Shown: positions 39,901 through 50,198 of the stretch, in pieces
How the letters are laid out: the number at the start of each line of letters is the position of its first letter
Numbering within the stretch: position 1 is the stretch's first letter
DNA from: a virus
Taxonomy: Duplodnaviria; Caudoviricetes
DNA length: 61,544 nt
Reading direction: 5' to 3' (one strand)
IMG/VR virus record: IMGVR_UViG_3300037010_000926
Location: 1-61,544 of that record
Notes under the pieces: model-generated
What the model saw: only the letters and a program-made list of their open reading frames with translations
The model's database searches: none
Told to the model about the DNA's origin: nothing
Position numbers and translations under genes: made by a program

Positions 39901-40383
39901 CTGATGCTCAACAAGTCCAGCTTCACCGGCCAACCCATCATCCTGGACACCGACACGCCGGCCGAGGCGACGGCCAAGGTCGCCGACTACCTGTTCAAGT
40001 GGATGGCGCCCAACCTACCGCTGCCTGGGCCTGGCTACCTCATCCCTGGCACCGACAGTGGGCAGATGCAGACCTACTCCTGGCAGTCGATGATGAACGC
40101 GGGCAAGGGCAAGACGGACCCCTTTGGTCGGGAGCAGAGCCTGCCCCAAGCCATGGCCAGCTCAATCGGCGTCAAGGTCAAGACCTACCCCGAGGACACT
40201 GCCAGGCTGCGCCTGGTGCAGAAGCTGTCCAGTGACACCAGCGAGATCCAGCGCAACATGAGTTCGATCGCCCGCCAGTACGGCACCAACGGCATCGACA
40301 AAGAGGAGTTCGATTCCCGCATGAAGCGCCAGACTGACAAGCTGGAGAAGGCCACCAAGGAAGCGAAGGAGGCGCTGGACTGA
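30952..40383 (+). CDS. Giant polyvalent internal virion protein (3143 aa): N-terminal lytic transglycosylase, metallopeptidase-like motif, further domains
   Basis: QESG...GGMQVLPKT...AAGYFSGPG (SLT); LAHEVVGHHG; RAVHDYFAH; GTGAGKVLYQ; NHIRTRH; C-terminal LPD-like region. Confidence 0.85.
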   Translation: MDLDLSNLSTTYDPYSAPAPQPAPAAAPAATPLQAGTSNIDDLIRQEGADKYAPVIRALYGQESGSGANAKTSVDGAQGGMQVLPKTFKAMLPDGDPNNPTHQIIAGIRYAKMLGDRTNGDPARMAAGYFSGPGNINAKGGTPFIHDAVDGNGKSVSSYVADVLGRIDKGDAPAAGAAPSQPPQWSAIAADPDFNRLSDDDQEQVRQNYLNKVVLPTVPTDQIGAVTELFNKRTAPSMVAGALRVAKDLGIDAASQVVGNVGGSLVRGVGSMMADPSNTEAELAQQPDQASQQAAKELKDRRESGVANTVGEWLKSRGQNAQAFGALMREQMSDKGQREAAKSAVEGSILKGEFHVNPDASAETYAHIFPGLLGSLADIVVGGAVAGPPGAMAVGAAQMSGQAQEAADAVTDQQLRDTPMYKGLVESGASTDSALSDTRALVTQAAGRSGEVMGAAGGGLLTDIFSKAGASWLLNHIKGTASRFAARTAAGSAEGSAFMVGQGVATNESMNQAAGSQLVDPGQGSAQNLALGAAMGPLAGMRELHGGAKPAPGDAIPAKDVIDNPPEGGAPRLEAPVVRPDWEVVDGQQQLGGPPGDQGGGPGIDPNAPRLPPPDASSRTIVANEAGDARVMSAAQVAELHNQWVEREIAAAQGQSTRQTARQQRAEMGLTDDVLQAQHRRDQSQEVTDVPSKEVAPKPEAPAPRVAEAPSGGAADESGRGQVSPVVADEHTSGGKPGAPQGAAAGSGEVVSDGAGRGEQAAPVAGDAAGEHPFVGSVVSFRYRGKTIRGRVASVDDNNRANVMLGEEPIGNAPGYRAGMQVPLTRLKKIGFSAFDLSMPEGKAVGADDAGAAHTVSTFRDTFPGADKLDVQLVRSEADVPDGAVRSNNTEAWYDRATGKVTVVLDAIGGKDEATRQRRLAEVLAHEVVGHHGMESLLMAKDPSGALLRRTLADVSRVLSDEVQPSDLGSDGQVKIGNPRYVSTEAVRLMYPDATPNEVAMETLARAAEMGIKPGLVDSLVTAVRQALRPLLNKLGIKLAFSRAEILSLVQAARKHVQERANKVLSKNQAAKVSEIQGDTQVASQRAPKDDKVAINLSAATDTIPGLKQARERANAGVPGAAEHLNAIAKNAIEHLTSGIKGVKIAFHDNKGLYFGELEPSLGMELSFPPESRGQVLAAMARFADNFNQQQIHVLQPAKEIEGTTHPDGSFNTVVRRIDLAKPLERSRVQQVIDESGLGGLNFSGKHIEAYYVGDPEKSDAITEFEHGFDRAVAAVGADGASTRRAVARLWRYGEPGDASDRGVIPYADIAGDVRPRQALASETAKRVAQQLHGQEVKPADTREITPEQRKLHKRIAADYEAMPQDDLANPLVRKAYAALGKEVKRQYDALPIKVEVYKGDGEPYANSQAMRQDVADHNHLFIYGTDKDSFGPPGVKYDNHPLLKASGRKDINGVPLLNNDLLRAVHDYFAHNVSDAQFGPKGEEAAWRNHMAMTNDPLARWALTSETRGQNSWVNFSGDRTGERGAGPLIERGFAEQKVGLLPIEHAMTGDASVDAGMRELERSLPAKDKQGSLGKTVESRGAKDREEYDAFNLDRDLTDKVKDKKPGLSKDDKIALQSELQAQQSGFNDMDLARQAAKDVQQISDDKIAAMGVHAEDAFPKLKFTKSKDGDEYEKWTAPLWIQGHPDEGQIIQRMGKKSWNAAPPTLLGAGHALSLLGLETVKAGQAYIQRIAASVELFRRGYDLLSSVDSKAVTRLTKAWRQIAANRGAFEFSGRMSQAEGSTTLEVMNDVGEQLLLGTGYRLNVERAGSHHFEVTIRDLKGVTHEASLEHRGAGAHANFVVHAAGLDRGTGAGKVLYQFAQAVADEYHMKILPDPNGLTGVNTYRRTEQMFSGAARLGKSGPMQPGVGQRIYGWDSKATTAKAHEANFARLALAIKRNVGELVPEFRAGDIHYDPTKDVFTQDGKDAEPLVKEILARPDVRAASVSRSTLARAAITADALEGNMPIKAREPLKRPVLYSKGAAEREAPPTKRSIADFVKRAWNMKSHDQTGAVIADQAPHAAYLMGEKSLGARQPWVITRDVVNHIRTRHADDGVTEAMLSNLPDLLNRPRAVIYTEDGVSVLLPARDAKGAPMLAHFKRETLSNGDRQMKLVRMASVYPKENSASYLASAMKDGSRMWLPSGELSRARALLQEGPDAHQPGDQPGLSQPESSSPPVQAAQRTPKTTDASVLSDEALRKFREGEKDWAKAVENISVPNDAPARLRGVNFSKGAGEREADYSSGPLDWIMKKAGGSLVRDWVTNPVFDLASKLVDKVVPERVKMGLVSDFGLDRPYLDARLDRDIGIHKELRRATKTLDGLADLSRDESRVAYLWMQQEPNTKLEAELLAKLPEASRLRLQQMRSTIDNLGREAVAAGLLTQDSYARNKLAYLHRSYAEHEALKARAGSVSSRQAATVRADTYKGRGIRDDVAQEKLIQHVDEIKAGDKLLRVERRDSTGRVNKVEYIRPDDKVPIGFTPEHIWEARWLGGPSATKVGLWRDLTPEERQRLGEIDEVRFAFAKTVLGATRDIENQKFLGWIADTYGKDTVPEDKIASGADTYLSSKAYKLDEFVKVPDTTIAKTGGLKKYGRAAGKYVPAVVWNDMRNRMAVPESELAQWWHSLTRAWKISKTALSPAVHMNNVMSNVIMADMADLGAHHILSSLKTLVDAHRGKAEAQALLERYEDSGAELGSMAARELNLRFIEPLLAELEAKQADELGMTRLSQIINMAAHGRISEAFTALGARKEVRLAALPFKKMVQVYQAEDGVFRLAKFLREVEAGRSDKDAGTAAREAFLDYNINAPWVQTLRKTGLPFVAFSYRAIPLVVNALRGKPWKIAKYMATAAALNAMFYAMLGMSKEDADKERKRNLPPELQGSTWGVFPRAMRMPWNDKNGQPVFLDTRRWVPAADVFDLQGNHSALPIPGWLQAAGPLALFGELMLNKSSFTGQPIILDTDTPAEATAKVADYLFKWMAPNLPLPGPGYLIPGTDSGQMQTYSWQSMMNAGKGKTDPFGREQSLPQAMASSIGVKVKTYPEDTARLRLVQKLSSDTSEIQRNMSSIARQYGTNGIDKEEFDSRMKRQTDKLEKATKEAKEALD
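33017..33244 (+). CDS. Candidate nested +1-frame ORF inside the giant gene
   Basis: AGGAGGT 5 nt before the ATG; lies in a low-complexity linker of the host frame. Confidence 0.5.
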   Translation: MSPAKKLRQSLKRQLPGWLRRPVEARQMSLAEARYLLWWRTNTPQGESLALPRVLQRAAGRLYLMEQDAANKLPL

Positions 40384-40599
40384 TCGCGGAATCGCGCCAG
40401 CGCTATCGCGGAATCCATCGCGGAATGGGACCATTCCAGCCCTTTATAGACCACTTCACCGGGCCACCCCACCGGGCTACGGTGGTCTGCAGCGGGCTCG
40501 CTTTGGGGTTCGATTCCCTTCACCCGCTCCAGTCAAGCCGTTGATTCACAACGGTTTTCCCTGACTGGCCGCTGAGCTATCGCGGTCCTATCGCGGAAT
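40383..40599. other. attP region with integrase arm-type repeats
   Basis: ATCGCGGAAT at 40383, 40405, 40417, 40590 and variant ATCGCGGTCC at 40579, flanking the core; IHF-like AATCAACGGCTTG (minus strand, 40534-40546). Confidence 0.85.
40506..40531 (+). other. attP core: 3' end of a tRNA-Gly (T arm and acceptor), not a full tRNA
   Basis: GGGTTCGATTCCCTTCACCCGCTCCA next to the integrase 3' end. Confidence 0.85.
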
Positions 40600-41815
40600 C
40601 GGGCTCGACCCCGCCACCCAGCGCGGCATTCACGGCAGCCAGGTTGCGCCCTCGATCGGCCTTGGGGATCCAGCCGGCGTAGTCCTTCATCATGGTCTGG
40701 ACCGAGTGGCCATGCTGCCTGGCCACCCAGTACGGATCCGCCCCGGCTGCCAGCGCCATGGTCACCGAGGTATCGCGCAGCTCCTTGGGCGGCCGGTGGC
40801 GCACGCCCACGCGGCGCAGGCTGGCCTGCCACTCGCGGCGCTGCTCCTCCCCGGTGTTCCAGGGCCGATCGGTAAAGGGGTTGAGGAACACCAGGCCCTC
40901 GGGGCGCATCTGCGTGCGGGCGCGCTGGCGCTCCACCACTGACCAGGCCAGGTCATTCAGCTCGACGGTGCGGGCGGTGTGGGTCTTGGTGCGCTCCTTG
41001 GTCTGCTTGAGCACACTGGAGCGGCTGACCCGGGCGGTGCGTTGCCTGAAGTCCACGTCGACCCAGCGCAGCGCGATCTGTTCGCTGGGCCGCAGGCCGG
41101 CGTAAGCGGCGAAGGCGTAGTAGTCGGTCAGGGCCAACGCCTGCTCCTGGCTCATCTTGCCGCGTGGCCGGCGAAGGTCGGCCAGGATCAGCTCGATCTC
41201 CTGGGGTGTAAAAGGATCCGGGGCGCCCCCCTGGACTTTCAGGCACTTGATGCCGTCCGTGGGGTTGGGCATGGCCAGCGACTTGCAGATCAGCTCGAAC
41301 ACAGCACGCAACGGGATCAGGATGTTGTTCTGGGTCTTGCGGCTGAGCCCTTTGGTGGTGAGCCCCGTCTGGTCATCGAACTTGTCCGTCGCCAAGGCTG
41401 ATAGCCTGGTGAGCACCATCTCGTGGCTGATCTTGCGCGGCGCCAGCGAGCCCCAGGCCGAGGTCCAGTAGGCGGCCAGGTGGGTGCGGTAGATTTTGAT
41501 GGTGGAGTGCTCCAGGTCGCGCGCCGCGAGCTGGCCCCACAGCTCAGCCCATTGGCCAAAGCTGCGGGTGCTAGCGCTGTCGGTGGCCTGGTGGCGATCG
41601 GCGAAGCGGTAGTCGGGGAAATAGTCGGCCAACCTGAAGGTGCCGGCCTTAATTGCGTCCTGGATGGTCTGACGTAGGCGCTGGGCATGGCGTAGGTTGG
41701 CAGCGGTGGGCTTGAGGTCCAGGGTGGGTCGCAGATCCTGGCCCTGCCATGTGAAGCGCACGGTGATGCGGTCGCCTGCCGGTACTACCCCGCCCGTCGT
41801 TGGCCTTCTACCCAT
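40577..41815 (-). CDS. int: Phage tyrosine integrase with arm-binding N-terminal domain
   Basis: ITVRFTWQG...LADYFPD arm domain; AGLRPSE, KT, KELRDT, QHGHS, DY. Confidence 0.95.
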   Translation of the reverse strand: MGRRPTTGGVVPAGDRITVRFTWQGQDLRPTLDLKPTAANLRHAQRLRQTIQDAIKAGTFRLADYFPDYRFADRHQATDSASTRSFGQWAELWGQLAARDLEHSTIKIYRTHLAAYWTSAWGSLAPRKISHEMVLTRLSALATDKFDDQTGLTTKGLSRKTQNNILIPLRAVFELICKSLAMPNPTDGIKCLKVQGGAPDPFTPQEIELILADLRRPRGKMSQEQALALTDYYAFAAYAGLRPSEQIALRWVDVDFRQRTARVSRSSVLKQTKERTKTHTARTVELNDLAWSVVERQRARTQMRPEGLVFLNPFTDRPWNTGEEQRREWQASLRRVGVRHRPPKELRDTSVTMALAAGADPYWVARQHGHSVQTMMKDYAGWIPKADRGRNLAAVNAALGGGVEPDSAIGPR

Positions 41816-42033
41816 CGCTCGTACCCCACCAGATCCACCAGCACGTTGCCATCTGGGGCGCGAATGTACTCATACCCCTCCAGCCAGACGCCACGCTTGA
41901 TCTTGGTCTGTATCGCCTCAATGGTGTAGCCCGTGGCCGCTTGGGCGGTGGCTAGGCGCACATAGCGGGACGGGCTCACCGGCAGGTAGGCCACGCGAGC
42001 CTTGCGATCATCGGGGGTGTCCGGGTTGGGCAC
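41785..42033 (-). CDS. xis: Excisionase
   Basis: YVRL...TGYTIEAIQTKIKRGVWLEG...APDGNVLVDLVGYERWVE; overlaps the int start. Confidence 0.85.
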   Translation of the reverse strand: MPNPDTPDDRKARVAYLPVSPSRYVRLATAQAATGYTIEAIQTKIKRGVWLEGYEYIRAPDGNVLVDLVGYERWVEGQRRAG

Positions 42034-42068
42034 AGCTTACACCTCACTGGTAGACGACTCAAGGTGTC

Positions 42069-42149
42069 GCATAACCTGGTCAATCTTGGTCTGACGCCCG
42101 GGGCGGCGACGTGTTACACAACAGGGTTGTCGTAGAACTTGTGTTAGGC
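42069..42149 (+). other. attC-like site 1 (degenerate arms; left boundary)
   Basis: GCATAAC ... GTTAGGC with weak L-box pairing. Confidence 0.45.
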
Positions 42150-42150
42150 C

Positions 42151-42414
42151 CTAGAGCCCGTTTCGCAGTTCGGCCACGATAGGGTCAATCTGCTGGCGGT
42201 TGTAGTCGTTGCGGTGCCACTCCACGATCTGCACTGCCCGCGCCTTGCACCGCTCGCGCTCTGCGGCAACTGCTGCGTCGAGCGCGGAGCGCATGTCTCT
42301 TTCCCATGCCGGATAAGTTCCATGCTCGATAGCCATCCCCCACTTCTGGCTGAACTCCACTACTGGGCCTAACAGGTCGTTCGAGGCCACAGCCTTCGGT
42401 ACGTTGTCGTTCAT
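42151..42414 (-). CDS. Cassette 1 hypothetical protein
   Basis: RBS GAAAGGA and ATG lie inside attC2; AVAAERERC motif. Confidence 0.75.
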   Translation of the reverse strand: MNDNVPKAVASNDLLGPVVEFSQKWGMAIEHGTYPAWERDMRSALDAAVAAERERCKARAVQIVEWHRNDYNRQQIDPIVAELRNGL

Positions 42415-42456
42415 CGTTAGTCCTTTCGAGGCTGGGCCTCAACTCCGAAGTTGGGC
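42367..42456 (+). other. attC site 2
   Basis: GCCTAAC-AGGTC-GTTCGAGGCC...GGCCTCAAC-TCCGAA-GTTGGGC. Confidence 0.9.
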
Positions 42457-42665
42457 GTCTTGCTGCACGCCGCCGCCGGGTATTCCAGCGCATCGGTCGG
42501 GTGGTACAGGTGAGATCGCTTGCCGCCAGGAATCCACAGCCGCAAGTACTGGCCGCGTGAACCGACGATGCGCGCTTGAATGCGCGCGCCGTCACCGACA
42601 ATCGTGACGGTCATTCCGCGCTTGGCCGGAACCTTGTAGGCTCTGCGGATGTAGTCCATGCTCAT
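42417..42665 (-). CDS. Cassette 2 hypothetical protein b
   Basis: MSMDYIRRAYKVPAKRG...YHPT; C-terminus reads through attC2. Confidence 0.75.
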   Translation of the reverse strand: MSMDYIRRAYKVPAKRGMTVTIVGDGARIQARIVGSRGQYLRLWIPGGKRSHLYHPTDALEYPAAACSKTPNFGVEAQPRKD

Positions 42666-42880
42666 CACCGGCTCCCGCAGCGCCAGCATCCGGCCACCTT
42701 GCCCCAAGCGCACTCGTGGCAACCTGCCGAGCGCACGGGGCCAGCGTTGGGGCCGCTGGAAATCAGGCGCGCTCGCTGTTCAGGCGTCAGCGTGCCGGCG
42801 CTGGCGCGCTGTTCCACCGGCCGCCCAACCCCTCGCTCGAAAGGAGGCGCAACGGCCGGTGTCTCGTTTTCGGGCTTCAT
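42665..42880 (-). CDS. Cassette 2 hypothetical protein a (CxxC...CxxC)
   Basis: ATG inside the attC3 loop after GAAAGGTG. Confidence 0.6.
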   Translation of the reverse strand: MKPENETPAVAPPFERGVGRPVEQRASAGTLTPEQRARLISSGPNAGPVRSAGCHECAWGKVAGCWRCGSR

Positions 42881-42910
42881 CGCGCGCACCTTTCAGCTCG
42901 AACGTTATGC
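42823..42910 (+). other. attC site 3
   Basis: GCCCAAC-CCCTC-GCTCGAAAGG...CCTTTCAGC-TCGAAC-GTTATGC. Confidence 0.9.
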
Positions 42911-43186
42911 AGCACCAACAGCCGCATCCCACTGCCGCCGCATCTTGTCCAGCATCTCCACGTCGTCGCTGGTTAGTGCGTGGCCTGGCTTCTGCGCCAG
43001 GTTGTAGGCAAAGTTCGCCAGCAGTCCGCCGGCTGACCTCGCGACAGCGTGCCGCTTGTCGCACCCAGCTATCGCCAGCGCTTCCACGCGCTGCGCGAAC
43101 GCATGCACCGTTCGGCCGGTCGGTGCGCCTTCCGGGGCGCCTCGCGTCACATCGCGCCATTCCCTGTTCGCCGTCTTTCTGTCCAT
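42905..43186 (-). CDS. Cassette 3 hypothetical protein
   Basis: GAAAGGA RBS; TAA stop supplied by R' GTTA. Confidence 0.75.
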   Translation of the reverse strand: MDRKTANREWRDVTRGAPEGAPTGRTVHAFAQRVEALAIAGCDKRHAVARSAGGLLANFAYNLAQKPGHALTSDDVEMLDKMRRQWDAAVGAA

Positions 43187-43226
43187 CTCAGTTCCTTTCG
43201 TTGTTGCCCAGCATGGGCCGGGCGCT

Positions 43227-43292
43227 GCCTAACATCCGCTCAACCTGACCCATCCGGCAAGCCGGCCGTGCTGGTTAGCTCAATCGTTAGGC
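43227..43292 (+). other. attC site 4
   Basis: GCCTAAC-ATCC-GCTCAACC...CCGGCAAGCCGG...GGTTAGC-TCAATC-GTTAGGC. Confidence 0.92.
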
Positions 43293-43586
43293 CACGCACT
43301 CTGTCGGCGGCGTCACTTCGCGGTTTGCTCTGAGCCTGTCGATGGTGCGCTGAAGATTGACGGCTTCAGCTTCGCGCTTCTCCGCTTGAATTCGCACCGC
43401 ATCGTGTAGCCAGTCGAGCCGACGCCCCAGGCCCTCTACGATGTTGTTCGCGTTTTCACGCGCATACGATCCCGGCTCCAACAGTTGCGCCATGCTGCTC
43501 ACGGCAAACTTGAGGCGGTCAAGCTCAGAGAGCACTTCATTTGGCCCGTAGAACTCATTCCCGAGGGTTCTGTTTCGCTGCCCCAT
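43287..43586 (-). CDS. Cassette 4 hypothetical coiled-coil protein
   Basis: GAAAGGA RBS; TAA stop supplied by R'. Confidence 0.7.
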   Translation of the reverse strand: MGQRNRTLGNEFYGPNEVLSELDRLKFAVSSMAQLLEPGSYARENANNIVEGLGRRLDWLHDAVRIQAEKREAEAVNLQRTIDRLRANREVTPPTECVA

Positions 43587-43609
43587 CTGCTTCCTTTCCG
43601 GCCAACGTG

Positions 43610-43696
43610 GCCTAACTGGTAGTTGCATCGGACCCGCATCGCGGGCATTGGTTACTCGGTCGGGTCAGCGGCGGGCCGCTGAACTCCACGTTATCC
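43610..43696 (+). other. attC site 5
   Basis: GCCTAAC...GTTGCATCGGACCCGC...GCGGGCCGCTGAAC-TCCAC-GTTATCC. Confidence 0.85.
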
Positions 43697-44137
43697 AGAC
43701 ACCAATACCGGCTCGTCATCGGCTCCAGCGCTTTGCGGGGCCTTGGTGGTGTCCACGTCAAAGGCCAGCCGCATGAACCGCGCCGCCGCAGCATTGGCCG
43801 CGTCGTGCGGCGCCCCCTCGTCCATCATCGAAACCGCGACGTTGCAATGCCAAGTCCACGCATAGTGCGGGTCGTCACGCATCGCGCTCTTGATGATGTT
43901 CATGGTTTCGCCGCACGGTGAGGCTGCCCTGCCAGGTCTGCACCGTGCAGGCCACTGGAAGAAAGGATCGCAGGCCTGGTCCACGCCGCGCAGCGTGAGA
44001 AACGCTTTCACGGCATCGGCGGCTGGTGCTGCGTCGTCGGTGGCTGAAAGCGTGATGCGCTCATCGCGGGTTGTCAAAAAACCGGCAAAGTCGTAGATCG
44101 CGCCAGAAACAATATGGTCAAGGCTTTCAATGCTCAT
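43691..44137 (-). CDS. Cassette 5 hypothetical protein (two-domain appearance)
   Basis: SGAIYDFAGFLTTR and YAWTWHCNVAVSMMDEG blocks; stop in R'. Confidence 0.75.
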   Translation of the reverse strand: MSIESLDHIVSGAIYDFAGFLTTRDERITLSATDDAAPAADAVKAFLTLRGVDQACDPFFQWPARCRPGRAASPCGETMNIIKSAMRDDPHYAWTWHCNVAVSMMDEGAPHDAANAAAARFMRLAFDVDTTKAPQSAGADDEPVLVSG

Positions 44138-44174
44138 TGGATTTCCATTCGCTTGCCAGCATTTACAGGGTGCT

Positions 44175-44235
44175 GGCTAACCCTTCGTTTAAGGCCCGAC
44201 TGCCTTCGGCAGCGGCCTTAACTCAATCGTTCGGC
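44175..44235 (+). other. attC site 6
   Basis: GGCTAAC-CCTTC-GTTTAAGGCC-CGACTGCC-TTC-GGCAGCG-GCCTTAAC-TCAATC-GTTCGGC. Confidence 0.92.
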
Positions 44236-44236
44236 C

Positions 44237-44563
44237 TCACGCGGCGCGGTCCAGCCGCTCAATCTCGGCGACGATCAGCGCGCCAGCCCGCACCAGGTCT
44301 GCACGCGGGTTTTTCGGCTTGAGCCATTGCAAGGACCATCCAGACCAGCGCCAGATCAAACGCTGCAGGTCTGACCCTGCGGTGTAGGGTCCAACGGCAT
44401 ACGATGCGGCGGCAACAGCCATGTTGCCGGCCATGTGCTTGTCATCGTGCTCGGGCGTCCAGCCCTCAACCTCGATCTGCCGTCGCCGCTCGGTAGCAAT
44501 GTCGCGCAGGGCATCCGATCCCCAAGCAATCGGGGGCGGTGCTTCGTGTGTTCCTTGGTCCAT
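44237..44563 (-). CDS. Cassette 6 conserved phage-type hypothetical protein
   Basis: ERRRQIEVEGWTPEHDD...LVRAGALIVAEIERLDR; start inside the attC7 loop. Confidence 0.8.
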   Translation of the reverse strand: MDQGTHEAPPPIAWGSDALRDIATERRRQIEVEGWTPEHDDKHMAGNMAVAAASYAVGPYTAGSDLQRLIWRWSGWSLQWLKPKNPRADLVRAGALIVAEIERLDRAA

Positions 44564-44613
44564 CGTCTTTCCTTTCGTGTCGGCCACAAGCGGGCCTAAT
44601 TCAAACGTTGGGC
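44514..44613 (+). other. attC site 7 (left arm degenerate)
   Basis: Right arm GGGCCTAAT-TCAAAC-GTTGGGC intact; R'' eroded to TCCGATC. Confidence 0.6.
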
Positions 44614-44617
44614 AGCA

Positions 44618-44803
44618 TCAGTCTTCGGTGCTGTCGCAGCTTAGGCACTCAACGTCGTCGCCCATGTCGCACATGCAGCACTTCTCTGCACCGCAATGCG
44701 GGCATTCATCAAGTCCCTGTGGCTCGTTCGGTTTGTTGTGCTTTCGGTCGTGCGTAGTAGCGCCACAGCTTGGGCATTCATCATCGGTTTCGCGGTAGTT
44801 CAT
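44618..44803 (-). CDS. Cassette 7 Cys-rich zinc-finger-like protein
   Basis: CPSC, CPHC, CCMC, CLSC. Confidence 0.75.
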   Translation of the reverse strand: MNYRETDDECPSCGATTHDRKHNKPNEPQGLDECPHCGAEKCCMCDMGDDVECLSCDSTED

Positions 44804-44824
44804 GTTTTTCCTTCCGGGCGTGCT

Positions 44825-44884
44825 GCCCAATAGTTCAATCAAGCCGACCTCCCTGCGGTCGGCAACTTATCTCAGGCGTTGTGC
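44825..44884 (+). other. attC site 8
   Basis: GCCCAAT-AGTTC-AATCAAG-CCGACC...GGTCGG-CAACTTATC-TCAGGC-GTTGTGC. Confidence 0.88.
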
Positions 44885-45357
44885 CCTACTACCACGAAGC
44901 CGAGGCCGCTTTGCCTGAGTGCGTCCAGGTTCGCGCTTCCGTAGGCCACCAGTGCTATCGGGGCGCCGCTGTTGAAATCCGCCCGCCGTCCGTCCACGTA
45001 GTGGAAGTGCGGGCGCCCTTTGAGGAACAGCACGCCGTCTGCCGCTCCCCAGATCGTTTCGTAAAACATCGCCGTCTCGGTGCGCGCCGGAATCAAGGCC
45101 ACCCCGTTCCCGTGGTCGCGCATCTTCCGAAGCCACTTCACGGCCTCGCGCCCGAATGGTGGGTTGCACCACACGCGGCCAAACCACGGCAACGCCAGCC
45201 CATCGTCGTGCGCCGTGTAGTGCTGTGCCGCCGTTTCCCAAGGCCGCACCACTGGCGCGCACGGGTCAAGATCGAAGGCGCCTAGCGCCCGCAGGATCTC
45301 CGGTGGAGTCAGCCATTCGTCGTGTCCGCCATTCTTCTGGTGCGCGCTCAAACCCAT
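44872..45357 (-). CDS. Cassette 8 phage-type DNA N6-adenine methyltransferase
   Basis: DEWLTPP, FDLDPCA, DDGL, VWCNPPFG, ALIPART, LKGRPHF. Confidence 0.88.
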   Translation of the reverse strand: MGLSAHQKNGGHDEWLTPPEILRALGAFDLDPCAPVVRPWETAAQHYTAHDDGLALPWFGRVWCNPPFGREAVKWLRKMRDHGNGVALIPARTETAMFYETIWGAADGVLFLKGRPHFHYVDGRRADFNSGAPIALVAYGSANLDALRQSGLGFVVVGHNA

Positions 45358-45376
45358 CTCACTTGTCCCCCGTGTG

Positions 45377-45446
45377 GCACAACCTGTCGCGCGAAGGGAC
45401 GCGCCGCGATGAAGCTGCGTCGCGCCCCTCCACTCTGTCGGTAGGC
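45377..45446 (+). other. attC site 9 (R' mutated to GGTAGGC)
   Basis: GCACAAC...GAAGGGACGCG...CGCGCCCCTCC...GGTAGGC. Confidence 0.75.
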
Positions 45447-45450
45447 CCGC

Positions 45451-45687
45451 TCAAGTGAAGGCGCTCCACCCGTTGTCCGGGTCGTACTCGCCGCCGTCCT
45501 CGGACAAGCCGCCTTCCGACTGGAACCAGCCAAGCTCGCACATGCGCTGCTGGTCTGCTGGCGTCAGGGGCTTGTCGGTCTTGTAGGCGTAAAACTGGTC
45601 GTGCTCGGCGCCGATGTGGAAGCCGTCGCCGTCCGTGTAGTACGGGCGCAGCGTGTTCAGGCCGTCAATGAATTTGCTCAGTCTCAT
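45451..45687 (-). CDS. Cassette 9 hypothetical protein
   Basis: GAGG RBS; GAEHDQFY...LGWF. Confidence 0.8.
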   Translation of the reverse strand: MRLSKFIDGLNTLRPYYTDGDGFHIGAEHDQFYAYKTDKPLTPADQQRMCELGWFQSEGGLSEDGGEYDPDNGWSAFT

Positions 45688-45709
45688 GCTTTTCCTCTCC
45701 AGCCCGCAG

Positions 45710-45805
45710 GCCTAACTGGTCGCTCAAGCGGCGCGCTGCCGGCGTGCTGTCGTTGTCCATCATTCCTCCTGTGCGGGCAGCGCCCGCTTAGCTCCAAAGT
45801 TGGGC
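45710..45805 (+). other. attC site 10
   Basis: GCCTAAC-TGGTC-GCTCAAGCGG-CGCGCTGCC...GGCAGCG-CCCGCTTAGC-TCCAAA-GTTGGGC. Confidence 0.92.
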
Positions 45806-45924
45806 GGCTTGCTGCGGGGCCAGCAGGGCACCAGCTCATCCGGCACGTCCGCAGAGCCCCAACAGCAGGCACGGCCTGAGCTGGCCCAGGGTCATCAACC
45901 CGGCGCGGTTGATGGGCGTGGTGC

Positions 45925-46797
45925 TCACGCCGCCACCTTGCGGATGGACACGGACTCCTTGAACTCGGCGTGGCAGCCGGGCACCTTGAAGTTTTCGCGC
46001 TGCAGATCGGCCAGCTTGTTCAGGGCCGACTGGTCCACGCTCAGCACACCGACCAGCGAGAGGTCACCCTTCTCGATCAGCACGGCCACATGGGCGATCA
46101 GCTTCGGGGCATTGGTGCACTCAGCCACATACTTGCCACGCACACCTTTGGTTTTGGGTGCTGCGTGCCCGCCGCCGCTGCTGTAGCTGACAACCTTCTG
46201 GGCCTGATGCAGCGCCGTGTCGGACGCCACTGCAGCGCGCTCCATCAGATCGTTGGCGGCGACCACGCTGCCCGCCTGGCGCGCTTCCTGGGCCTGCTGA
46301 GCCAGGTTCAGCGCCTCGGTCTGGGCTGCGGCCTCAACCAAAGCAGCGGCGGCCACCGCTTCCTCGTGCGCCTTGCGCTCGATCTCTGCCTGCTCGGCGG
46401 CCTTGCGCTGCACCTCCTTGTTGTAGCCGAGGATCTTGGTCTTGGTGCCGTCGACCTTGGTGTTGATGAAGGTGCCGGCCGCGTTGTAGCCGTCGTTGAT
46501 GCGGGAGGCCAGGTCGCGCAGGGGCTTGGTGCGCTCCAGGCGCTCCTTCTCGATCGCGACTGAGACGCCAGACAGGCGGCCCGCCATTTGCTGGGCCTCG
46601 GCCAGCATCTCGGGCGAGTCGATGATGATGGCGTCGATCACCTCCAGGTCGGGACCGATACGGTTGACGTATTCCTGCAGCCCCGGACTGACGATGGTGA
46701 TGCTGCTCGGCTCGGCGAGCACCTTGGCCACCAGGGCTTGCAGATCGGCCATCGGGCCGGTGGTGGCGAGGGTGGCGACGGTGATGTCTTGTGTCAT
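45925..46797 (-). CDS. Coiled-coil protein of the recombination module
   Basis: IEKERLERTKPL...INDGY, C-terminal KVPG; coupled to the exonuclease gene. Confidence 0.75.
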   Translation of the reverse strand: MTQDITVATLATTGPMADLQALVAKVLAEPSSITIVSPGLQEYVNRIGPDLEVIDAIIIDSPEMLAEAQQMAGRLSGVSVAIEKERLERTKPLRDLASRINDGYNAAGTFINTKVDGTKTKILGYNKEVQRKAAEQAEIERKAHEEAVAAAALVEAAAQTEALNLAQQAQEARQAGSVVAANDLMERAAVASDTALHQAQKVVSYSSGGGHAAPKTKGVRGKYVAECTNAPKLIAHVAVLIEKGDLSLVGVLSVDQSALNKLADLQRENFKVPGCHAEFKESVSIRKVAA

Positions 46798-47384
46798 GAC
46801 TTGCTCCAGCGGTAGACGTTAAGGAGGGAGCAGAACGCCGGCCAGTCGGCCGGGTTGTCCCACGAGAGAAATCGGTAGCGGCCATCGGGCCTGAGCTGCA
46901 CCGAGCCGCGCCTGGCGCGGATGTAGCGCGGATCCTGGTTGGCACGCATGGCCCGGTAGGCTGCGGTCTGCATCCCCCAGGCCTTGTGGTCTTGCAGGCT
47001 GCTCTTGATGTCGATGACCCAGGGCTCAGGCTCGCCGTCCAGCGTGCCGGTGCGGTCCCAGGTGCCGGCAAACCCGGCGTCGTGGTAGTCGCGCTCCTCG
47101 ACCGAATCCCAGACCGGCTTGCGGTCGCGGATAAAGGCCTTCCACGCCTTGAGGTAGCCCATGTACAGGCCGTCCTCCATCAAGGCCAGCGCCTCCTCGT
47201 CCAGCTCACCCAGGTCATAGGCCTCGGTCATGGCGTGCACAAACGTGCCCCGCTCCTGGGCCACTTCGAGGATGTGCTTGGGCACACCCGCGAAAGGCTG
47301 CAGCAGATTCAGCACCTGGGTCACGCTGGGCACCACCTGTCCGTGCCAGCGGTAGGTGTGCGAGGAGGGCTCGAAGGTCAGCAT
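46794..47384 (-). CDS. PD-(D/E)XK (Cas4-like) exonuclease
   Basis: PSVTQVL, RGTFVH, FAGTWDR, VIDIKS, QTAAY. Confidence 0.85.
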   Translation of the reverse strand: MLTFEPSSHTYRWHGQVVPSVTQVLNLLQPFAGVPKHILEVAQERGTFVHAMTEAYDLGELDEEALALMEDGLYMGYLKAWKAFIRDRKPVWDSVEERDYHDAGFAGTWDRTGTLDGEPEPWVIDIKSSLQDHKAWGMQTAAYRAMRANQDPRYIRARRGSVQLRPDGRYRFLSWDNPADWPAFCSLLNVYRWSKS

Positions 47385-48565
47385 CAGGCGAGCCGGCGGC
47401 GCAGTTTGGCGAAGTCATCCTGGGTCAAGCCTTCCAGGGTGACGGGATCCTTCACCGAGGTGATGCCCAGCTCATCAAGCACCGTGATGAGGTCGAGCGA
47501 CTTGACGCGCGCCTTGACCCGGATGTTGGCCTTTTCACCGTCACTGGCCAGCGGGCTACCCTCGGCCACCGCCGGTTCGTCAGGTGCTGGCGCTGGCGTA
47601 GGGGATGGAGCCGGCGCCGGGGAGGGGGCAGCAACGGGCTCAGCGGCCTGCACGGGGGCCGCATCGGCGGCTGGTGCAGGGGTGGGTGCCTGAGCGGGCT
47701 CGGACGCCACAGCGGGCTCAGGAGCCGGCGCCGGGGCGTCGGCCTTCTTGCGCGGCACGGCCGGCGCCTGGCTGGCCTGGGGTTCCTCGGCGCCCTCCAT
47801 GGCAAAGGCACGCTCGGGCGTGGTGTCGCCTTCACGCAGCGAGGTCAAGATGCCGCGCAGGGTGACCAAGTTGTCCAGGCTGATGTCGTCGATGCCGGCG
47901 ATGCCCAGGAAGGAGTAGACCGTGGTGGGCTGCACGCCAAAGCGCAGCAGATCCTGCATGGCGTTGGCCCGGCGGGTGCCCAGGGTCTTGAAGTCGCCCA
48001 TGGCGCACTCTCTGGCGGCGGTTTGCAGGTCAGCCCAGAAGGCCTTGGGCACCCCCTTGAGCGCCGCGTTGCGCAGGGCGATCGAGCTGGCGGCGTTGCC
48101 GGTGACGCCGATCATGTCGGCGCTGAAGCGCCGACCCTCCGCGTCCACGATGCGGCGCTGCACCTCGTAGGTGATGGCCACGTTGCGCTCCAGGTCGTGA
48201 AACACGCCCTGGGCGGTGATGTAGTCACCCTGGTCGCTGACCACACGGGCGCCAGCACGGCAGTTGCCCCAGGCGCTGAGCACGATCTCGGCAAAGCGAG
48301 CGCTCGGGCCTTCGATGCTGACATCGACGTAGCGGCGCGTCACCTTGTCGTACTTCTTGCGCGGGAGCACGTAGAAGCACTCGGACGCGATCACCTCGTT
48401 GAGGGTGACCATTTGCAGCGCCTCGTCGCGGAAGCGTTTGATGGAGCGTGGCCACTTCTTGGCCGTGCTGATCTGCATGTCGATCTCGCCGCGATTGAGT
48501 AGCGCGACCGTGCCACTCTCAGCAACCAGATGTTCCCGGGCAGAGCCGGTGCTGTCGTCGTCCAT
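47384..48565 (-). CDS. Putative ssDNA-annealing (RecT-like) protein
   Basis: AKKWPRS...FYVLPR...IEGPSARFAE...WGN, ALRNAAL; next to the exonuclease. Confidence 0.6.
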   Translation of the reverse strand: MDDDSTGSAREHLVAESGTVALLNRGEIDMQISTAKKWPRSIKRFRDEALQMVTLNEVIASECFYVLPRKKYDKVTRRYVDVSIEGPSARFAEIVLSAWGNCRAGARVVSDQGDYITAQGVFHDLERNVAITYEVQRRIVDAEGRRFSADMIGVTGNAASSIALRNAALKGVPKAFWADLQTAARECAMGDFKTLGTRRANAMQDLLRFGVQPTTVYSFLGIAGIDDISLDNLVTLRGILTSLREGDTTPERAFAMEGAEEPQASQAPAVPRKKADAPAPAPEPAVASEPAQAPTPAPAADAAPVQAAEPVAAPSPAPAPSPTPAPAPDEPAVAEGSPLASDGEKANIRVKARVKSLDLITVLDELGITSVKDPVTLEGLTQDDFAKLRRRLA

Positions 48566-48606
48566 GGGTTCTCCTAGTAACTCGTCTGGGTTGACGGTGT
48601 ACCTAG

Positions 48607-48635
48607 AAGGTATACCAAATGCCGACAGAGGTCAA
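48607..48635 (-). promoter_or_regulatory. Early-left promoter (pL-like) with operators
   Basis: TTGACC-N17-TACCTT; operator GTGTACCTAGAAGGTATAC at 48597-48615. Confidence 0.7.
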
Positions 48636-48654
48636 CCATTTTGGATTAAAGGTT

Positions 48655-49002
48655 TTAGGGATTGGAGGCCAGCCGCCGACAGGTTTGCAACAGCGTTGTG
48701 CGCTGCTGCACAGCCAGCTTGGTCAGGGCGTCTGCCATGGCCAGCGAGGTGTCGTGGATCACGGGCACCTGCTGGTCCATGGGACTGTCGGCTTGCAGGG
48801 CCGCCTGTTGGGCCTGGTAGAGCAGGACCAGGGCGCTGCGCTCCTGGTCTTGCCGGTAGGCCAGCTCAGCCAGGGCAGGGTGGCTGAGCAGTTGCTCTGG
48901 GGTGCTGTGGGCGCAGGGATCCTCCTGGTGCCGGCTCCGGTCGGCCCAGCCCACCAGGACGGCAAAGGCTGCCCAGGCTGCCAGGCTATAGGCGCACCGC
49001 AT
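48655..49002 (-). CDS. Putative exported/membrane protein downstream of cI
   Basis: Hydrophobic N-terminus YSLAAWAAFAVLVGWA; overlaps the cI end. Confidence 0.55.
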   Translation of the reverse strand: MRCAYSLAAWAAFAVLVGWADRSRHQEDPCAHSTPEQLLSHPALAELAYRQDQERSALVLLYQAQQAALQADSPMDQQVPVIHDTSLAMADALTKLAVQQRTTLLQTCRRLASNP

Positions 49003-49657
49003 TGAAGGCTGCCACGACGCGCCCGATGATCGCCATGCCGGATTCGGCGGGGTTGTCGACGATCTGCTGGGGGTAGGCGCTGTTGTCACTGATGAGCAGG
49101 AGGGATCCGTCCAGGCGCCGGGAGATGCGCTTGACAAACACCTCCTCACCACTGTGGAAGGCATACACCGCGTCAGCACTGGTGTGCCGCACACCCCGGT
49201 CGACCAGCAGGATCGCACCATCGCTCAAGGTTGGAGACATCCCATCCCCGGCGTAGGTCATCAGCGCGAGCTTTTCCAGGTTGGGCGTGTTGCACAGCGA
49301 CTTGAGCCAGTCCTTCGAGGCCCTGGCCATCAACATCCCGGGCGGTGGCAGCTTGAGTTCCACCAGGGTTGTGGACCCGGATTTATCCAGGGCCACCAGG
49401 TCGATGCTGACCTCATCCTCGCGGCCCGCCTCCAGTTCGTTGTGCTCACGGTCCAGCCAGCCCGTGGGTTTATCGAAGGCCTGCTCGAAACGCCTAGCCA
49501 CGGCATTGCCGATCCCCTTGATCGGGCTCTTGCCGATGTAGTGGTTCAGGAGCTGCTTTTTCATGCCCAGGCGCATGGCCAGGCGAGTCTGATCGCCCTG
49601 CTCTGATCCGCACAATTCGCGTGCGTTGGCCAGGCGGATCTCATGGATCGTTTTCAT
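48986..49657 (-). CDS. cI: CI-type repressor (HTH plus S24 peptidase)
   Basis: IRLANAR...IGNAVARRFE...GWLD; GDGMSPTL, VFVKRI, ISDN. Confidence 0.9.
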   Translation of the reverse strand: MKTIHEIRLANARELCGSEQGDQTRLAMRLGMKKQLLNHYIGKSPIKGIGNAVARRFEQAFDKPTGWLDREHNELEAGREDEVSIDLVALDKSGSTTLVELKLPPPGMLMARASKDWLKSLCNTPNLEKLALMTYAGDGMSPTLSDGAILLVDRGVRHTSADAVYAFHSGEEVFVKRISRRLDGSLLLISDNSAYPQQIVDNPAESGMAIIGRVVAAFNAVRL

Positions 49658-49752
49658 GCCACGATCTTGCGGTATCCGTGGTGGTTGACGGGTGTCCAAA
49701 TGGGTTGTCATTTGCCCTCCAACCTGGACACCAGATGGGTAGACTGGTGGCC

Positions 49753-50001
49753 ATGGAAATACGCGATGTCTGGAAAACCTTCGATGAGCCGGCGCGTCAG
49801 CGCTTCCTGCGCAAGGCCGGGACGACCGAGGGCTACGTGGAAAAGCTCAACGGTGGCTACTGCTGTCCCAGCCTGGAGATGGCTGCGAAGCTGATAGCGG
49901 CCGACCGGCGCTTGACCTATGAGGGGTTCTTGGTTTCCCGGCGCCGCCGCCTTGCGGCCGACCGGGAGCGAGAGAAGAAGCGCAAACCGGAGACTGTGTG
50001 A
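49753..50001 (+). CDS. cro: Cro-like repressor
   Basis: Divergent from cI; AGTTEGYVEKL...PSLEMAAKL. Confidence 0.7.
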   Translation: MEIRDVWKTFDEPARQRFLRKAGTTEGYVEKLNGGYCCPSLEMAAKLIAADRRLTYEGFLVSRRRRLAADREREKKRKPETV

Positions 50002-50110
50002 CCCTGGAATGCGCCAGGTTGAGTGGCGCATTGATATACCCCTGAGGTGGAAAACGCCACCACATTGGGGCCAATCGACCTGGACCGGGAAAGAATTTCT
50101 AGGGATACGG

Positions 50111-50139
50111 TTGACACCTAGTTTGTATACCTGTACGGT
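50111..50139 (+). promoter_or_regulatory. Early-right promoter of the replication operon with operator
   Basis: TTGACA-N17-TACGGT; operator-like 50112-50130. Confidence 0.7.
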
Positions 50140-50198
50140 TGACGCATTTGCTACCCAACAAGCTCGTTTGGGTGCGCGTTCAACGGGAAGGGCGGGTC

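What the first reader, a model, noticed from the sequence alone, without database searches (positions are those of the whole stretch)
42069..45805. Integron-type attC cassette array inside a temperate phage, with no intI and all ORFs inverted
Seen: ten RYYYAAC...GTTRRRY hairpins with attC-like L boxes and unpaired bases (42069, 42367, 42823, 43227, 43610, 44175, 44514, 44825, 45377, 45710). They delimit nine units: 42144-42450, 42451-42904, 42905-43286, 43287-43690, 43691-44229, 44230-44607, 44608-44878, 44879-45440, 45441-45799. Each unit's first bases pair with its own downstream R'': GTTAGGCCACG/CGTGGCCTAAC, GTTGGGCAGCA/TGCTGCCCAAT, GTTGTGCC/GGCACAAC, GTTGGGC/GCCCAAC, GTTATGCAGC/GCTGCCTAAC. 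Established: this complementarity is the signature of circular cassettes inserted by IntI at G|TT, and cassette ORFs normally lie on the attC top strand. Here every ORF is on the opposite strand, in line with the phage early-left operon (RecT-like, exo ... xis, int), and the cargo is phage-type. Inference: the phage uses integron recombination, probably with host IntI in trans, to build and reshuffle a variable early-gene region read from its own pL. SOS induces both IntI and prophages, which could couple the two.
Basis: partly seen in the sequence, partly recalled or inferred. Interest (0 to 1): 0.96.

Follow-up and report, generated by a model that had tools for sequence, protein, structure and literature searches.

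The report
Reversed integron cassette array in phage
This temperate phage carries a real array of integron-type gene cassettes with no integron integrase of its own, and every gene lies on the strand opposite to the one used in bacterial integrons, a back-to-front design shared by many other phage sequences.

Summary
The observation largely holds. A covariance model built only from 14 canonical attC sites of IntI-linked integrons hits 7 of the 10 proposed sites (20-41 bits, all on the + strand, all within 42367-45806). It hits nothing else significant in the 61.5-kb genome. Of the other three sites:
- S8 is eroded: its R' box reads GGT.
- S6 is only a half site.
- Site 0 is not an attC. It is an attI-like junction homologous to the attI of phage integrons that do encode IntI.

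No IntI gene is present. All ten cassette ORFs lie on the attC bottom strand, in line with xis and int.

The design is not peculiar to this phage. In 241 inter-attC intervals from viral contigs, 121 had bottom-strand ORFs, 7 had top-strand ORFs and 113 were ambiguous. Related temperate phages carry complete integrons in the order cassettes, attI, intI, phage int. Identical cassettes sit in different arrays with borders exactly at the R' box.

Best reading: an IntI-built, hairpin-first cassette array of a phage-type integron that has lost intI.

Phage attC clusters are already in print (Qi et al. 2023). I found no paper on the reversed polarity. This scan has noted the same design before on other phage DNA.

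The parts
40577..41815 (-). Phage integrase (lambda type, 412 aa). It is not an integron integrase.
   Evidence: Pfam Arm-DNA-bind_2 plus Phage_integrase. TIGR02249 gives no match in the genome.
41785..42033 (-). Probable excisionase (82 aa), in the slot where related phages carry intI.
   Evidence: No Pfam hit. A homologous pair of this ORF and int lies next to an attC array in L187 (tblastn). Related phages have intI between attI and int.
42100..42149 (+). attI-like junction ending in the R' box G|TTAGGC (42143-42149). This is the left end of the array and has no hairpin.
   Evidence: The core TGTCGTAGAACTT..GTTAGG aligns with the attI regions next to intI in L219, L272, L273, L274 and L275. 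R1 scores only 8 bits here as an attC.
42367..42457 (+). attC S1. Its loop holds the ribosome-binding site and the start codon of g1 on the bottom strand.
   Evidence: R2 34.4 bits. Anatomy.
42823..42911 (+). attC S2. Its loop holds the ribosome-binding site and the start codon of g3.
   Evidence: R2 27.5 bits. The g3 homologue in L177 also starts inside an attC.
43227..43293 (+). attC S3.
   Evidence: R2 38.6 bits.
43610..43697 (+). attC S4. The extra base in L'' is G.
   Evidence: R2 20.2 bits.
44175..44236 (+). attC S5, a 62-nt site very like the aadA-type attC.
   Evidence: R2 29.0 bits. Compare the real attC sequences.
44580..44614 (+). Half attC (only L', spacer and R'). It fuses the g7 and g8 units.
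   Evidence: R1 12.4 bits at 44594-44614. R2 does not list it. Sequence read.
44825..44885 (+). attC S7.
   Evidence: R2 33.4 bits. A homologous hairpin lies upstream of the g8 homologue in L229.
45377..45447 (+). Eroded attC S8. Its R' box reads GGTAGGC instead of GTT, so it is probably inactive.
   Evidence: R2 13.8 bits, E 0.22. Sequence.
45710..45806 (+). attC S9, a complete site at the right end of the array. Its loop holds a strong ribosome-binding site and a short leader ORF.
   Evidence: R2 41.0 bits. Sequence.
42151..42414 (-). g1, 87 aa, unknown function.
   Evidence: Ribosome-binding site GAAAGGA and coding GC pattern. No family match.
42417..42880 (-). g3 (42665-42880, 71 aa) and g2 (42417-42665, 82 aa). 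Their stop and start codons overlap, and both sit in one unit.
   Evidence: g2 matches phrog_2730. The g2 homologue in L229 is 89% identical, and the DNA match ends at 42450, the G of R' of S1.
42905..43186 (-). g4, 93 aa. Its stop codon is the TTA of G|TTATGC.
43287..43586 (-). g5, 99 aa. Its stop codon is the TTA of G|TTAGGC.
43691..44137 (-). g6, 148 aa, a family widespread in viral contigs.
   Evidence: 42 homologues. DNA homology to L001, L076 and L077 runs only from 43689 to 44183-44187.
44237..44563 (-). g7, 108 aa, a domain also found at the C-terminal end of larger phage proteins.
   Evidence: phrog_11504 and eight further PHROG families.
44618..44803 (-). g8, 61 aa, Cys-rich.
   Evidence: phrog_5584. 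The L229 homologue is 81% identical.
44872..45357 (-). g9, 161 aa, an orphan N6-adenine DNA methyltransferase.
   Evidence: Pfam PF05869, phrog_111, PADLOC oMTase.
45451..45687 (-). g10, 78 aa, unknown function.
   Evidence: GC3 is 0.87.

Best explanation
The stretch 42100-45806 is an integron cassette array of a phage-specific, reversed design. It has an attI-like entry site next to xis, then nine units bounded by attC sites. Seven of these sites are intact.

Each unit was inserted by an integron integrase (IntI) at G|TT of the R' box on the + strand. Read in the direction of the gene, a unit therefore consists of the attC hairpin first, then the ribosome-binding site and the gene, and it ends in RYYYAA, often with the stop codon inside that box. 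Because the genes lie on the attC bottom strand, the whole array is read with the phage's leftward early operon towards attI, xis and int.

This phage has no intI. Related temperate phages carry intI exactly between attI and the phage int. The array was therefore most likely built by a phage-borne IntI that this lineage lost or exchanged for xis. It can now be reshuffled only by an IntI supplied in trans, from a host integron or from a co-resident phage.

Status of each step:
- Shown: the identity and polarity of the sites, the strand of the ORFs, the absence of intI, and the unit borders in relatives.
- Inferred: the transcription, present-day mobility, the source of IntI and the function of the cargo.
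For: (1) Site identity. Model R2, built from 14 canonical attC sites, finds 7 sites, all on the + strand and all inside the array. In the other direction, model R1, built from the phage sites, finds 5 attC sites of a class 1 integron on the strand of their genes. It also finds 5 of 5 attC sites running away from intI in two chromosomal integrons.

(2) Reversed genes. My ORF classifier gave:
- bottom strand in 9 of 9 window units;
- top strand in 3 of 3 and 4 of 4 units of canonical control arrays;
- top strand 6, bottom strand 0 in control L270.

(3) Unit ends are complementary beyond the box in 8 of 8 own pairs, against 1 of 9 same-hairpin pairs.

(4) Array ends are asymmetric in the canonical way. 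The left end has an attI-like core without a hairpin. The right end is a complete attC.

(5) Relatives.
- In L219, L268 and L274 the order is cassettes, attI, intI (428 bits in G043/L268 and 476 bits in G061/L219, cut-off 265; the L274 intI was found as a 66% identical tblastn relative of the L219 IntI), then phage int.
- In L219, L268, L272, L274 and L275, cassette ORFs were bottom strand in 12 intervals and top strand in 0.
- These IntI proteins are ordinary ones, 55-59% identical to IntI1.

(6) Mobility at R'.
- Of 54 internal ends of blocks at least 93% identical among array loci, 21 lie within 12 nt of the R' G, 4 lie near R'' and 29 lie elsewhere.
- Three single cassettes (98%, 100% and 100% identical) sit in different arrays with borders exactly at ..AAC.
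- For the window itself, the g2 match to L229 ends at 42450, the G of R' of S1. The g8 homologue keeps a homologous upstream hairpin. The g3 homologue in L177 also starts inside an attC.

(7) Spread. A pattern search gave 80 viral loci holding 331 R1 hits. IntI scored over the cut-off in 4 of the 80. Of 241 intervals, 121 were bottom strand, 7 top strand and 113 ambiguous.
Against: - The g6 unit does not behave as this model predicts. Its DNA match to L001, L076 and L077 stops at R'' of S5 (44183-44187), so the upstream hairpin that should travel with the gene is not shared.
- One indel (L192 against L240), and one end of a 93% identical block (L215 against L235), also map to R''.
- 29 of 54 block ends lie away from any listed site. 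Some of these may sit at sites the model missed.
- 113 of 241 intervals could not be assigned a strand.
- The 80 survey loci were picked with a pattern taken from this window's own site type, and the sites in them were called with a model built from this window. The survey is therefore not an unbiased census.
- IMG/VR contigs may include host DNA. L238 is a provirus whose end carries a canonical integron.
- No recombination was observed in this phage. The joints seen in the laid contigs had short sides (20-47 nt) and are not evidence.
- Two of the nine unit borders are already dead (S6, S8), which fits decay.
Confidence: 0.8

Rival explanations
1. Frozen relic. The array was assembled by IntI in an ancestor but no longer moves in this lineage. 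The hairpins are kept because they now serve the phage operon, as translation start regions, mRNA structures or spacers between genes.
For: - No intI is in the genome.
- S6 is a half site and S8 has lost the GTT of R'.
- The loops of S1, S2 and S9 carry a ribosome-binding site and a start codon on the coding strand. A related site in L076 has a leader ORF whose stop overlaps the next start.
- In three of the four runs laid, long contigs identical to the window cover the array, without unit differences.
Against: - Seven sites still score as full attC sites with intact R boxes.
- The same site types move between arrays at 98-100% identity in related contigs, so the system is active in this phage world.
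- Minor contigs in the same samples share S2 and then diverge at 42907, inside its R' box (table 8).
Confidence: 0.3
2. The units move in the opposite way, gene first and hairpin behind. In that case the crossover is at the R'' box, that is, recombination of the folded top strand.
For: - The g6 match to three contigs ends at R'' of S5.
- The downstream hairpins of the window and L076 share L-box letters.
- The L192/L240 indel maps to the first 20 nt of the site.
Against: - 21 block ends lie at R' against 4 at R'', which is about the chance level.
- Three identical cassettes start with the hairpin.
- In complete phage integrons the array starts without a hairpin at attI next to intI and ends with a full attC, and the window shows the same asymmetry.
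- g1 and g3 start inside the upstream hairpin, so a crossover at R'' would split them.
- The L-box type GTTCAGCGG also occurs in unrelated arrays such as L039 and L040.
Confidence: 0.07
3. A piece of a host chromosomal integron was picked up en bloc by the phage, as described for Vibrio anguillarum phages. It happens to lie backwards in the operon.
For: Such captures are in print (Qi et al. 2023, PMC9892861, section 3.1, read). In the survey, provirus L238 carries a canonical integron at its end.
Against: - The genes lie on the strand that bacterial cassettes do not use.
- The cargo is phage-type.
- The same slot and the same polarity recur in many viral contigs, including complete genomes with terminal repeats.
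- The left end matches the attI of phage-borne integrons.
Confidence: 0.04
4. The hairpins are ordinary phage intergenic structures (terminators, processing sites or boundary sequences for homologous exchange) with only a chance likeness to attC.
For: - Simple motif counts are not striking. RYYYAAC and GTTRRRY are not enriched per 4 kb.
- A loose hairpin scan also hits shuffled sequence 1-5 times.
- Related contigs L081 and L082 swap a gene at plain 26-nt repeats without any hairpin.
Against: Models built in both directions cross-detect the phage sites and bona fide attC sites with strand specificity. No T-tract terminators were found above chance. IntI genes sit next to such arrays in relatives.
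Confidence: 0.02

Closest known systems
CALINs (clusters of attC sites lacking an integron integrase) in phage genomes; Qi et al. 2023, Front Microbiol, PMC9892861 (outline and sections 3, 3.1, 3.4 read; text search for orientation terms)
   Same: attC sites and cassettes in phage genomes without intI. DNA methyltransferases are among the cargo. That paper shows that phage attC sites are recombined by IntI1.
   Different: - That paper reports 17 CALINs in 10,705 phage genomes. For TJE1 and PH101 it describes the typical bacterial layout.
- The main text does not mention genes lying on the attC bottom strand.
- Here there are seven to eight sites, an attI-like end and a fixed slot upstream of xis and int, and every gene is reversed.
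Classical integrons, for example the class 1 integron (IntI1, attI1, aadA-type attC)
   Same: - Same attC architecture and near-identical box layout. Compare S5 with the aadA1 and aadA2 sites.
- Same G|TT border and the same complementarity of cassette ends.
- In relatives, the same intI-attI-attC geometry and an IntI 55-59% identical to IntI1.
   Different: - Genes lie on the bottom strand, so the hairpin precedes its gene.
- The array is read towards attI and intI, not from a Pc promoter beside attI.
- The unit nearest attI is the last to be transcribed, not the first.
- There is no intI in this genome.
[quoted passage not shown]
   Same: In both designs intI and the cassette genes point the same way.
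   Different: There, intI is turned round and the cassettes keep normal polarity. Here, in L219, L268 and L272-L275, intI and the attC sites have the regular divergent geometry and it is the genes inside the cassettes that are turned.
Reverse-oriented cassettes in sedentary chromosomal integrons (toxin-antitoxin cassettes with their own promoters); recalled, with only the abstract of PMC13108822 seen in a search listing
   Same: Single cassettes whose ORF lies opposite to the array direction.
   Different: Those are a minority inside normal arrays and carry their own promoter. Here the whole array is reversed, as are whole arrays in many phages, and no internal promoters were seen above chance.

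Membership tests
attC site (integron cassette recombination site) | R''-L''...L'-R' imperfect inverted repeat with RYYYAAC and GTTRRRY boxes, unpaired spacers and extra base(s) on the R''/L'' arm. | tested here: met
   7 of 10 proposed sites score at E <= 0.003 with model R2, built from 14 canonical attC sites. The extra base lies on the left arm of the + strand in 8 of 8 aligned sites.
attC site (integron cassette recombination site) | Recombined by IntI as a folded bottom strand, with the crossover at G|TT. | not testable with these tools
   Indirect only. Block borders fall at the R' box in related arrays, and the g2 match ends at 42450.
CALIN (Cury et al. 2016 term, as used in PMC9892861) | Two or more attC sites close together in one orientation, with no integron integrase nearby. 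| tested here: met
   Seven sites lie within 3.4 kb, all on the + strand. TIGR02249 is absent from the whole genome.
Complete integron | An intI gene with the IntI-specific domain next to the array. | tested here: not met
   0 matches in the 61,544-bp record. The only tyrosine recombinase found is a lambda-type Int.
Complete integron | An attI site at the integrase-proximal end of the array. | tested here: inconclusive
   Window 42117-42149 shares the core TGTCGTnGAAyTT..G|TTA with the regions between intI and the first cassette in L219, L272, L273, L274 and L275. Function was not tested.
Complete integron | Cassette ORFs on the attC top strand, expressed from Pc near attI. | tested here: not met
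   ORFs lie on the bottom strand in 9 of 9 units. No promoter match was found on the + strand in 41800-50300.
Reversed-polarity phage integron (no published name found; also noted earlier by this scan) | attC bottom strand is the coding strand. The array sits upstream of attI, then intI or xis, then phage int, at the end of the leftward early operon. | tested here: met
   Window layout. The same order is seen in L219, L268 and L274 and in L187 with xis and int.

The most novel reading that the evidence does not exclude
Temperate and other phages keep their own mirror-image integron system. Their cassettes are built with the attC in front of the gene on the coding strand. Arrays are therefore read from the phage early promoter towards attI, intI and int.

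Three consequences would follow. IntI would be made as part of early phage transcription, not only under a LexA-controlled promoter. Transcription would leave the recombinogenic bottom strand as the displaced strand. And phages would draw on a cassette pool of their own, with methyltransferases and probably other counter-defence genes, separate from the bacterial pool although run by an ordinary IntI.
Probability: 0.5. Interest if true: 0.9.

Novelty: new variant of a known kind. Interest (0 to 1): 0.78.

Why it matters
Integrons are seen as bacterial devices in which new cassettes land next to a promoter and are read away from the integrase. Here the same enzyme family and the same sites are used with the genes turned round and placed inside a phage operon. 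Three things follow.

- Expression logic changes. All units are read in one operon, and the newest unit is read last.
- The origin of cassettes can be examined. A second class with opposite polarity constrains models of how attC sites become joined to genes.
- Phage variable regions gain a mechanism. A precise, enzyme-driven way to swap early genes, including anti-restriction methyltransferases, would help explain mosaicism next to int.

There is also a practical point. Pipelines that call every CDS between attC sites a cassette gene without regard to strand would not notice this class.

Tried and rejected
- Plain motif counts. GCCTAAC occurs 6 times against 3.3 expected, which is not significant, although all 6 copies lie in the array. 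RYYYAAC and GTTRRRY densities per 4 kb are not raised.
- My own strict hairpin scan found only 4 of the sites, and shuffled sequence gave 1-5 hits. I dropped it in favour of covariance models.
- Searches for relatives with the 290-aa protein and with Int as single queries found none in viral or genome contigs. DNA search of the phage collection found only a 102-nt match in int.
- A strand classifier based on GC phase failed on 2 of 3 units of the lower-GC control L166. I replaced it with the classifier based on ribosome-binding site plus ORF coverage.
- The idea that the phage's own Int runs the array: 0 of 5 other array-bearing viral records, one of them complete, hold any PF00589 recombinase. 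Int is therefore not a general partner.
- Laid contigs. The joints had sides of only 20-47 nt at 85% likeness, and I do not count them. Parts without cover say nothing.
- Model R1 on Shewanella phage M16-3, the published phage integron, gave only 15-16-bit hits. Its polarity rests on its annotation alone.
- The L081/L082 gene indel is flanked by plain repeats, not attC sites.
- L070, a contig of a bacterial MAG that also holds a canonical integron, could not be shown to be phage.
- Pfam, PHROG, PADLOC and NCBIfam name only the methyltransferase among the cargo.
- Literature. Five searches and text look-ups in PMC9892861, PMC9024848 and PMC13323075 gave no description of bottom-strand cassette arrays. 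Supplements were closed, so tables of phage CALINs that might show gene strands were not seen.

Full report
**What the window is.** The window is a whole IMG/VR virus record of 61,544 bp with direct terminal repeats and about 65% G+C. Its only DNA match in the phage collection is a short stretch of int in two Acidovorax phages. On the - strand lies a leftward operon:
- an S24 repressor (48986-49711);
- a 393-aa and a 290-aa protein;
- a PD-(D/E)XK nuclease;
- ten small ORFs (42151-45687);
- a probable xis (41785-42033);
- a lambda-type integrase (40577-41815).

The finding concerns the small-ORF region.

**Are the sites attC sites?** All ten proposed places hold hairpins. Eight of them align end to end on the + strand as RYYYAAC, a 5-nt spacer ending in TC, an L'' box with one extra base, a variable loop, L', a 6-nt spacer beginning with TC, and GTTRRRY.

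I fetched a real class 1 integron (E. coli phage P1 isolate, MH445380) and read the attC sites behind aadA1, aadA2, cmlA1 and psp. They have the same layout, nearly letter for letter in the boxes.

Two covariance models gave reciprocal tests.
- R1 was built from the eight phage sites. In the window it scores only those sites, at 50-69 bits on the + strand. The same places score at most 11.6 bits on the - strand, and the best hit elsewhere scores 11.2 bits. R1 finds five attC sites of the class 1 integron on the strand of their genes. It also finds 5 of 5 sites running away from intI in two chromosomal integrons of bacterial MAGs.
- R2 was built only from 14 canonical sites of IntI-linked arrays. 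It finds S9, S3, S1, S7, S5, S2 and S4 (41.0 to 20.2 bits, E <= 0.003), all on the + strand. S8 scores 13.8 bits (E 0.22), and the best hit outside the array scores 13.9 bits.

So seven sites are sound. S8 is eroded (R' reads GGT). The site at 44514-44614 is a right half only. The site at 42069-42150 is not an attC.

**Polarity and genes.** Both models fix the + strand as the canonical top strand. The ten ORFs are on the - strand. They have GAAAGGA-type ribosome-binding sites and the GC3 > GC1 > GC2 pattern of this genome's genes, whereas the long + strand frames lack it. A classifier based on ribosome-binding site plus ORF coverage gave:
- bottom strand in 9 of 9 window units;
- top strand in 3 of 3 and 4 of 4 units of two canonical controls.

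Three stop codons are the TTA of G|TTA in the R' box. The loops of S1 and S2 hold the start of g1 and g3, and the loop of S9 holds a short leader ORF.

Among the cargo, g9 is an orphan adenine methyltransferase. g2, g7 and g8 match PHROG families of unknown function. g6 belongs to a family common in viral contigs.

**The cassette signature.** The R' box at the start of each unit is complementary to that unit's own downstream R'' box, beyond the 7-nt box, in 8 of 8 testable pairs. Runs reach 8-11 bp. The two boxes of one physical hairpin match beyond the box in only 1 of 9 cases. Real cassettes show the same feature, for example aadA2 and the G007 cassettes. This is the mark of circular units inserted at the box. 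It would look the same whichever hairpin belonged to the unit, so it does not by itself give the polarity.

**Which hairpin belongs to which gene?** Known IntI chemistry puts the crossover at G|TT of R' on the top strand. In the direction of the gene, the hairpin therefore precedes its gene. Several results support this.
- The array ends are asymmetric in the expected way. The left end has G|TTAGGC without a hairpin and the right end has a full attC.
- The left end shares the core TGTCGTnGAAyTT..G|TTA with the stretch between intI and the first cassette in five viral contigs that encode IntI.
- Among array-bearing loci, 54 internal ends of blocks at least 93% identical were placed. Of these, 21 lie within 12 nt of the R' G, 4 near R'' and 29 elsewhere. 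Each event is counted from both partners.
- Three single cassettes (L180/L219 at 98%, L221/L226 at 100%, L218/L227 at 100%) sit between different neighbours. Their identity starts at ..AAC before the hairpin and stops at the next ..AAC.
- For the window's own genes: the g2 match to L229 (83% DNA identity) ends at 42450, the G of R' of S1. The g8 homologue there keeps a homologous upstream hairpin. The g3 homologue in L177 also begins inside an attC.

Against this stands g6. Its match to L001, L076 and L077 (78-84%) runs only from R' of S4 to R'' of S5, so its upstream hairpin has been exchanged. The L192/L240 indel maps to the R'' end of the site, as does one end of a 93% identical L215/L235 block. 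I have no shown mechanism for these. Rare top-strand events or short-homology exchange are guesses.

**Relatives and spread.**
- Loci were fetched through the g6 family. In them, 26 of 26 R1 hits at E < 0.01 in L001-L003 and L076-L080, and 20 of 20 hits in 144 further loci, lie on the strand opposite to the gene.
- A gapped pattern taken from S9 gave 98 viral stretches. The 80 listed hold 331 R1 hits.
- IntI scored over the NCBIfam cut-off in 4 of the 80 records. Several records without it are complete genomes.
- Of 241 non-duplicate intervals between sites, 121 had bottom-strand ORFs, 7 had top-strand ORFs and 113 were ambiguous. The one clearly canonical locus is a provirus with IntI at its very end.
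- Two IntI-bearing records, and contigs found with their IntI, are complete integrons with regular intI-attC geometry. All 18 of 18 sites upstream of intI are on the opposite strand. Their cassette ORFs nevertheless point towards intI: bottom strand 12, top strand 0, against top 6, bottom 0 in the canonical control.
- In L219, L268 and L274 the order is cassettes, attI, intI, phage int. L274 then has a tail gene, which is the same neighbourhood as in the window, where xis stands in place of intI.
- These IntI proteins are 55-59% identical to IntI1, so they are ordinary enzymes.
- Five other array-bearing viral records have no tyrosine recombinase at all.

**Limits of the survey.** The loci were chosen with a pattern from this window, and sites were called with a model from this window. 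Duplicates were removed only by identity of the first 80 nt. Nearly half of the intervals were ambiguous. IMG/VR contigs can include host DNA.

**Reads.** Four metagenome runs, kept as contigs, hold the stretch. Three of them may be the source of this DNA. In those three runs, long contigs identical to the window cover the array. Minor contigs share 42842-42907 and then leave the reference inside R' of S2, or share 44095-44183 and leave at R'' of S5. The core of the S8 hairpin occurs in other contigs with other R boxes. The listed joints have short sides and are not used as evidence.

**How it most likely works.** The array was assembled unit by unit by an IntI at attI or at attC sites. It is read with the early leftward operon. 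No promoter or terminator matches above chance lie inside it, so this step is inferred. It is now without its own integrase. About seven units (g1; g3+g2; g4; g5; g6; g7+g8; g9+g10) could still be moved by an IntI in trans. The host, the source of IntI, the transcription and the function of the cargo are not shown.

**Known or new.** attC clusters and integrons in phages are published (Qi et al. 2023, PMC9892861). My five searches and three text look-ups found no account of arrays whose genes all lie on the attC bottom strand, nor of the cassettes-attI-intI-int order. Supplements were closed. Earlier notes of this scan describe the same reversed design on other phage DNA. They are unchecked AI notes that agree with what I found here independently. 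I file this as a new variant of a known kind.

Noticed in passing
window 45392-45430 (core of S8): In runs X1, X2 and X4 this hairpin core lies in other contigs, one of them at much higher depth in X4. There it has different R boxes (GCCCAAC ... GTTAGCC) and is followed by AGGAGG on the top strand, as in a canonical cassette. This may be the same hairpin in a bacterial integron of the community (tables 4, 7 and 8).
   Followed up: no
window 42414-42367, 45763-45660; L076 1240-1340: The long attC loops encode short leader ORFs on the coding strand that begin M-N/D-D/N-N/D. In L076 the leader's stop overlaps the start of the next gene (ATGA). This looks like translational coupling through the attC.
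   Followed up: partly
window 44181-44140 and the matching places in L001, L076, L080: Directly after the R'' box of the g6 unit lies a small stem (GCCAGC ... GCTGGC) with a variable loop, kept in four contigs. Similar short stems that include the variable part of R'' follow other units.
   Followed up: no
L219 3733-4479; L274 6175-6927: In two phage integrons a PAPS-reductase-like gene is among the cassettes next to attI: the nearest one in L219, with one more ORF between it and intI in L274.
   Followed up: no
L081 766-792 / L082 291-549: Two contigs that are 98% identical differ by one small gene flanked by 26-nt direct repeats spanning the ribosome-binding site and start codon. This is gene swapping without any hairpin, in phages that carry the N-terminal half of the g6 family.
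   Followed up: partly
G007 (L166 10715-13324 and L070): One bacterial MAG holds a canonical integron (intI, attI and three top-strand cassettes). On another contig it holds a g6-family gene beside attC sites of opposite polarity. This could be a host-phage pair.
   Followed up: partly
window 3670-3747: ARAGORN reports a tRNA-like gene with a four-base anticodon loop reading (cagt) and no assigned amino acid.
   Followed up: no
window 30952-40383: A 3143-aa ORF ends 190 nt from int. Its counterpart next to int in L274 is a tail protein (Phage-tail_3).
   Followed up: no
L039 1-1500 / L040 4800-5900: Two low-GC phage contigs that are 97.6% identical over 3.4 kb carry different sets of small genes upstream. 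These genes are separated by nearly identical 55-60-nt attC sites, each followed by the same GTTATGTGAAAAGGAA leader.
   Followed up: partly
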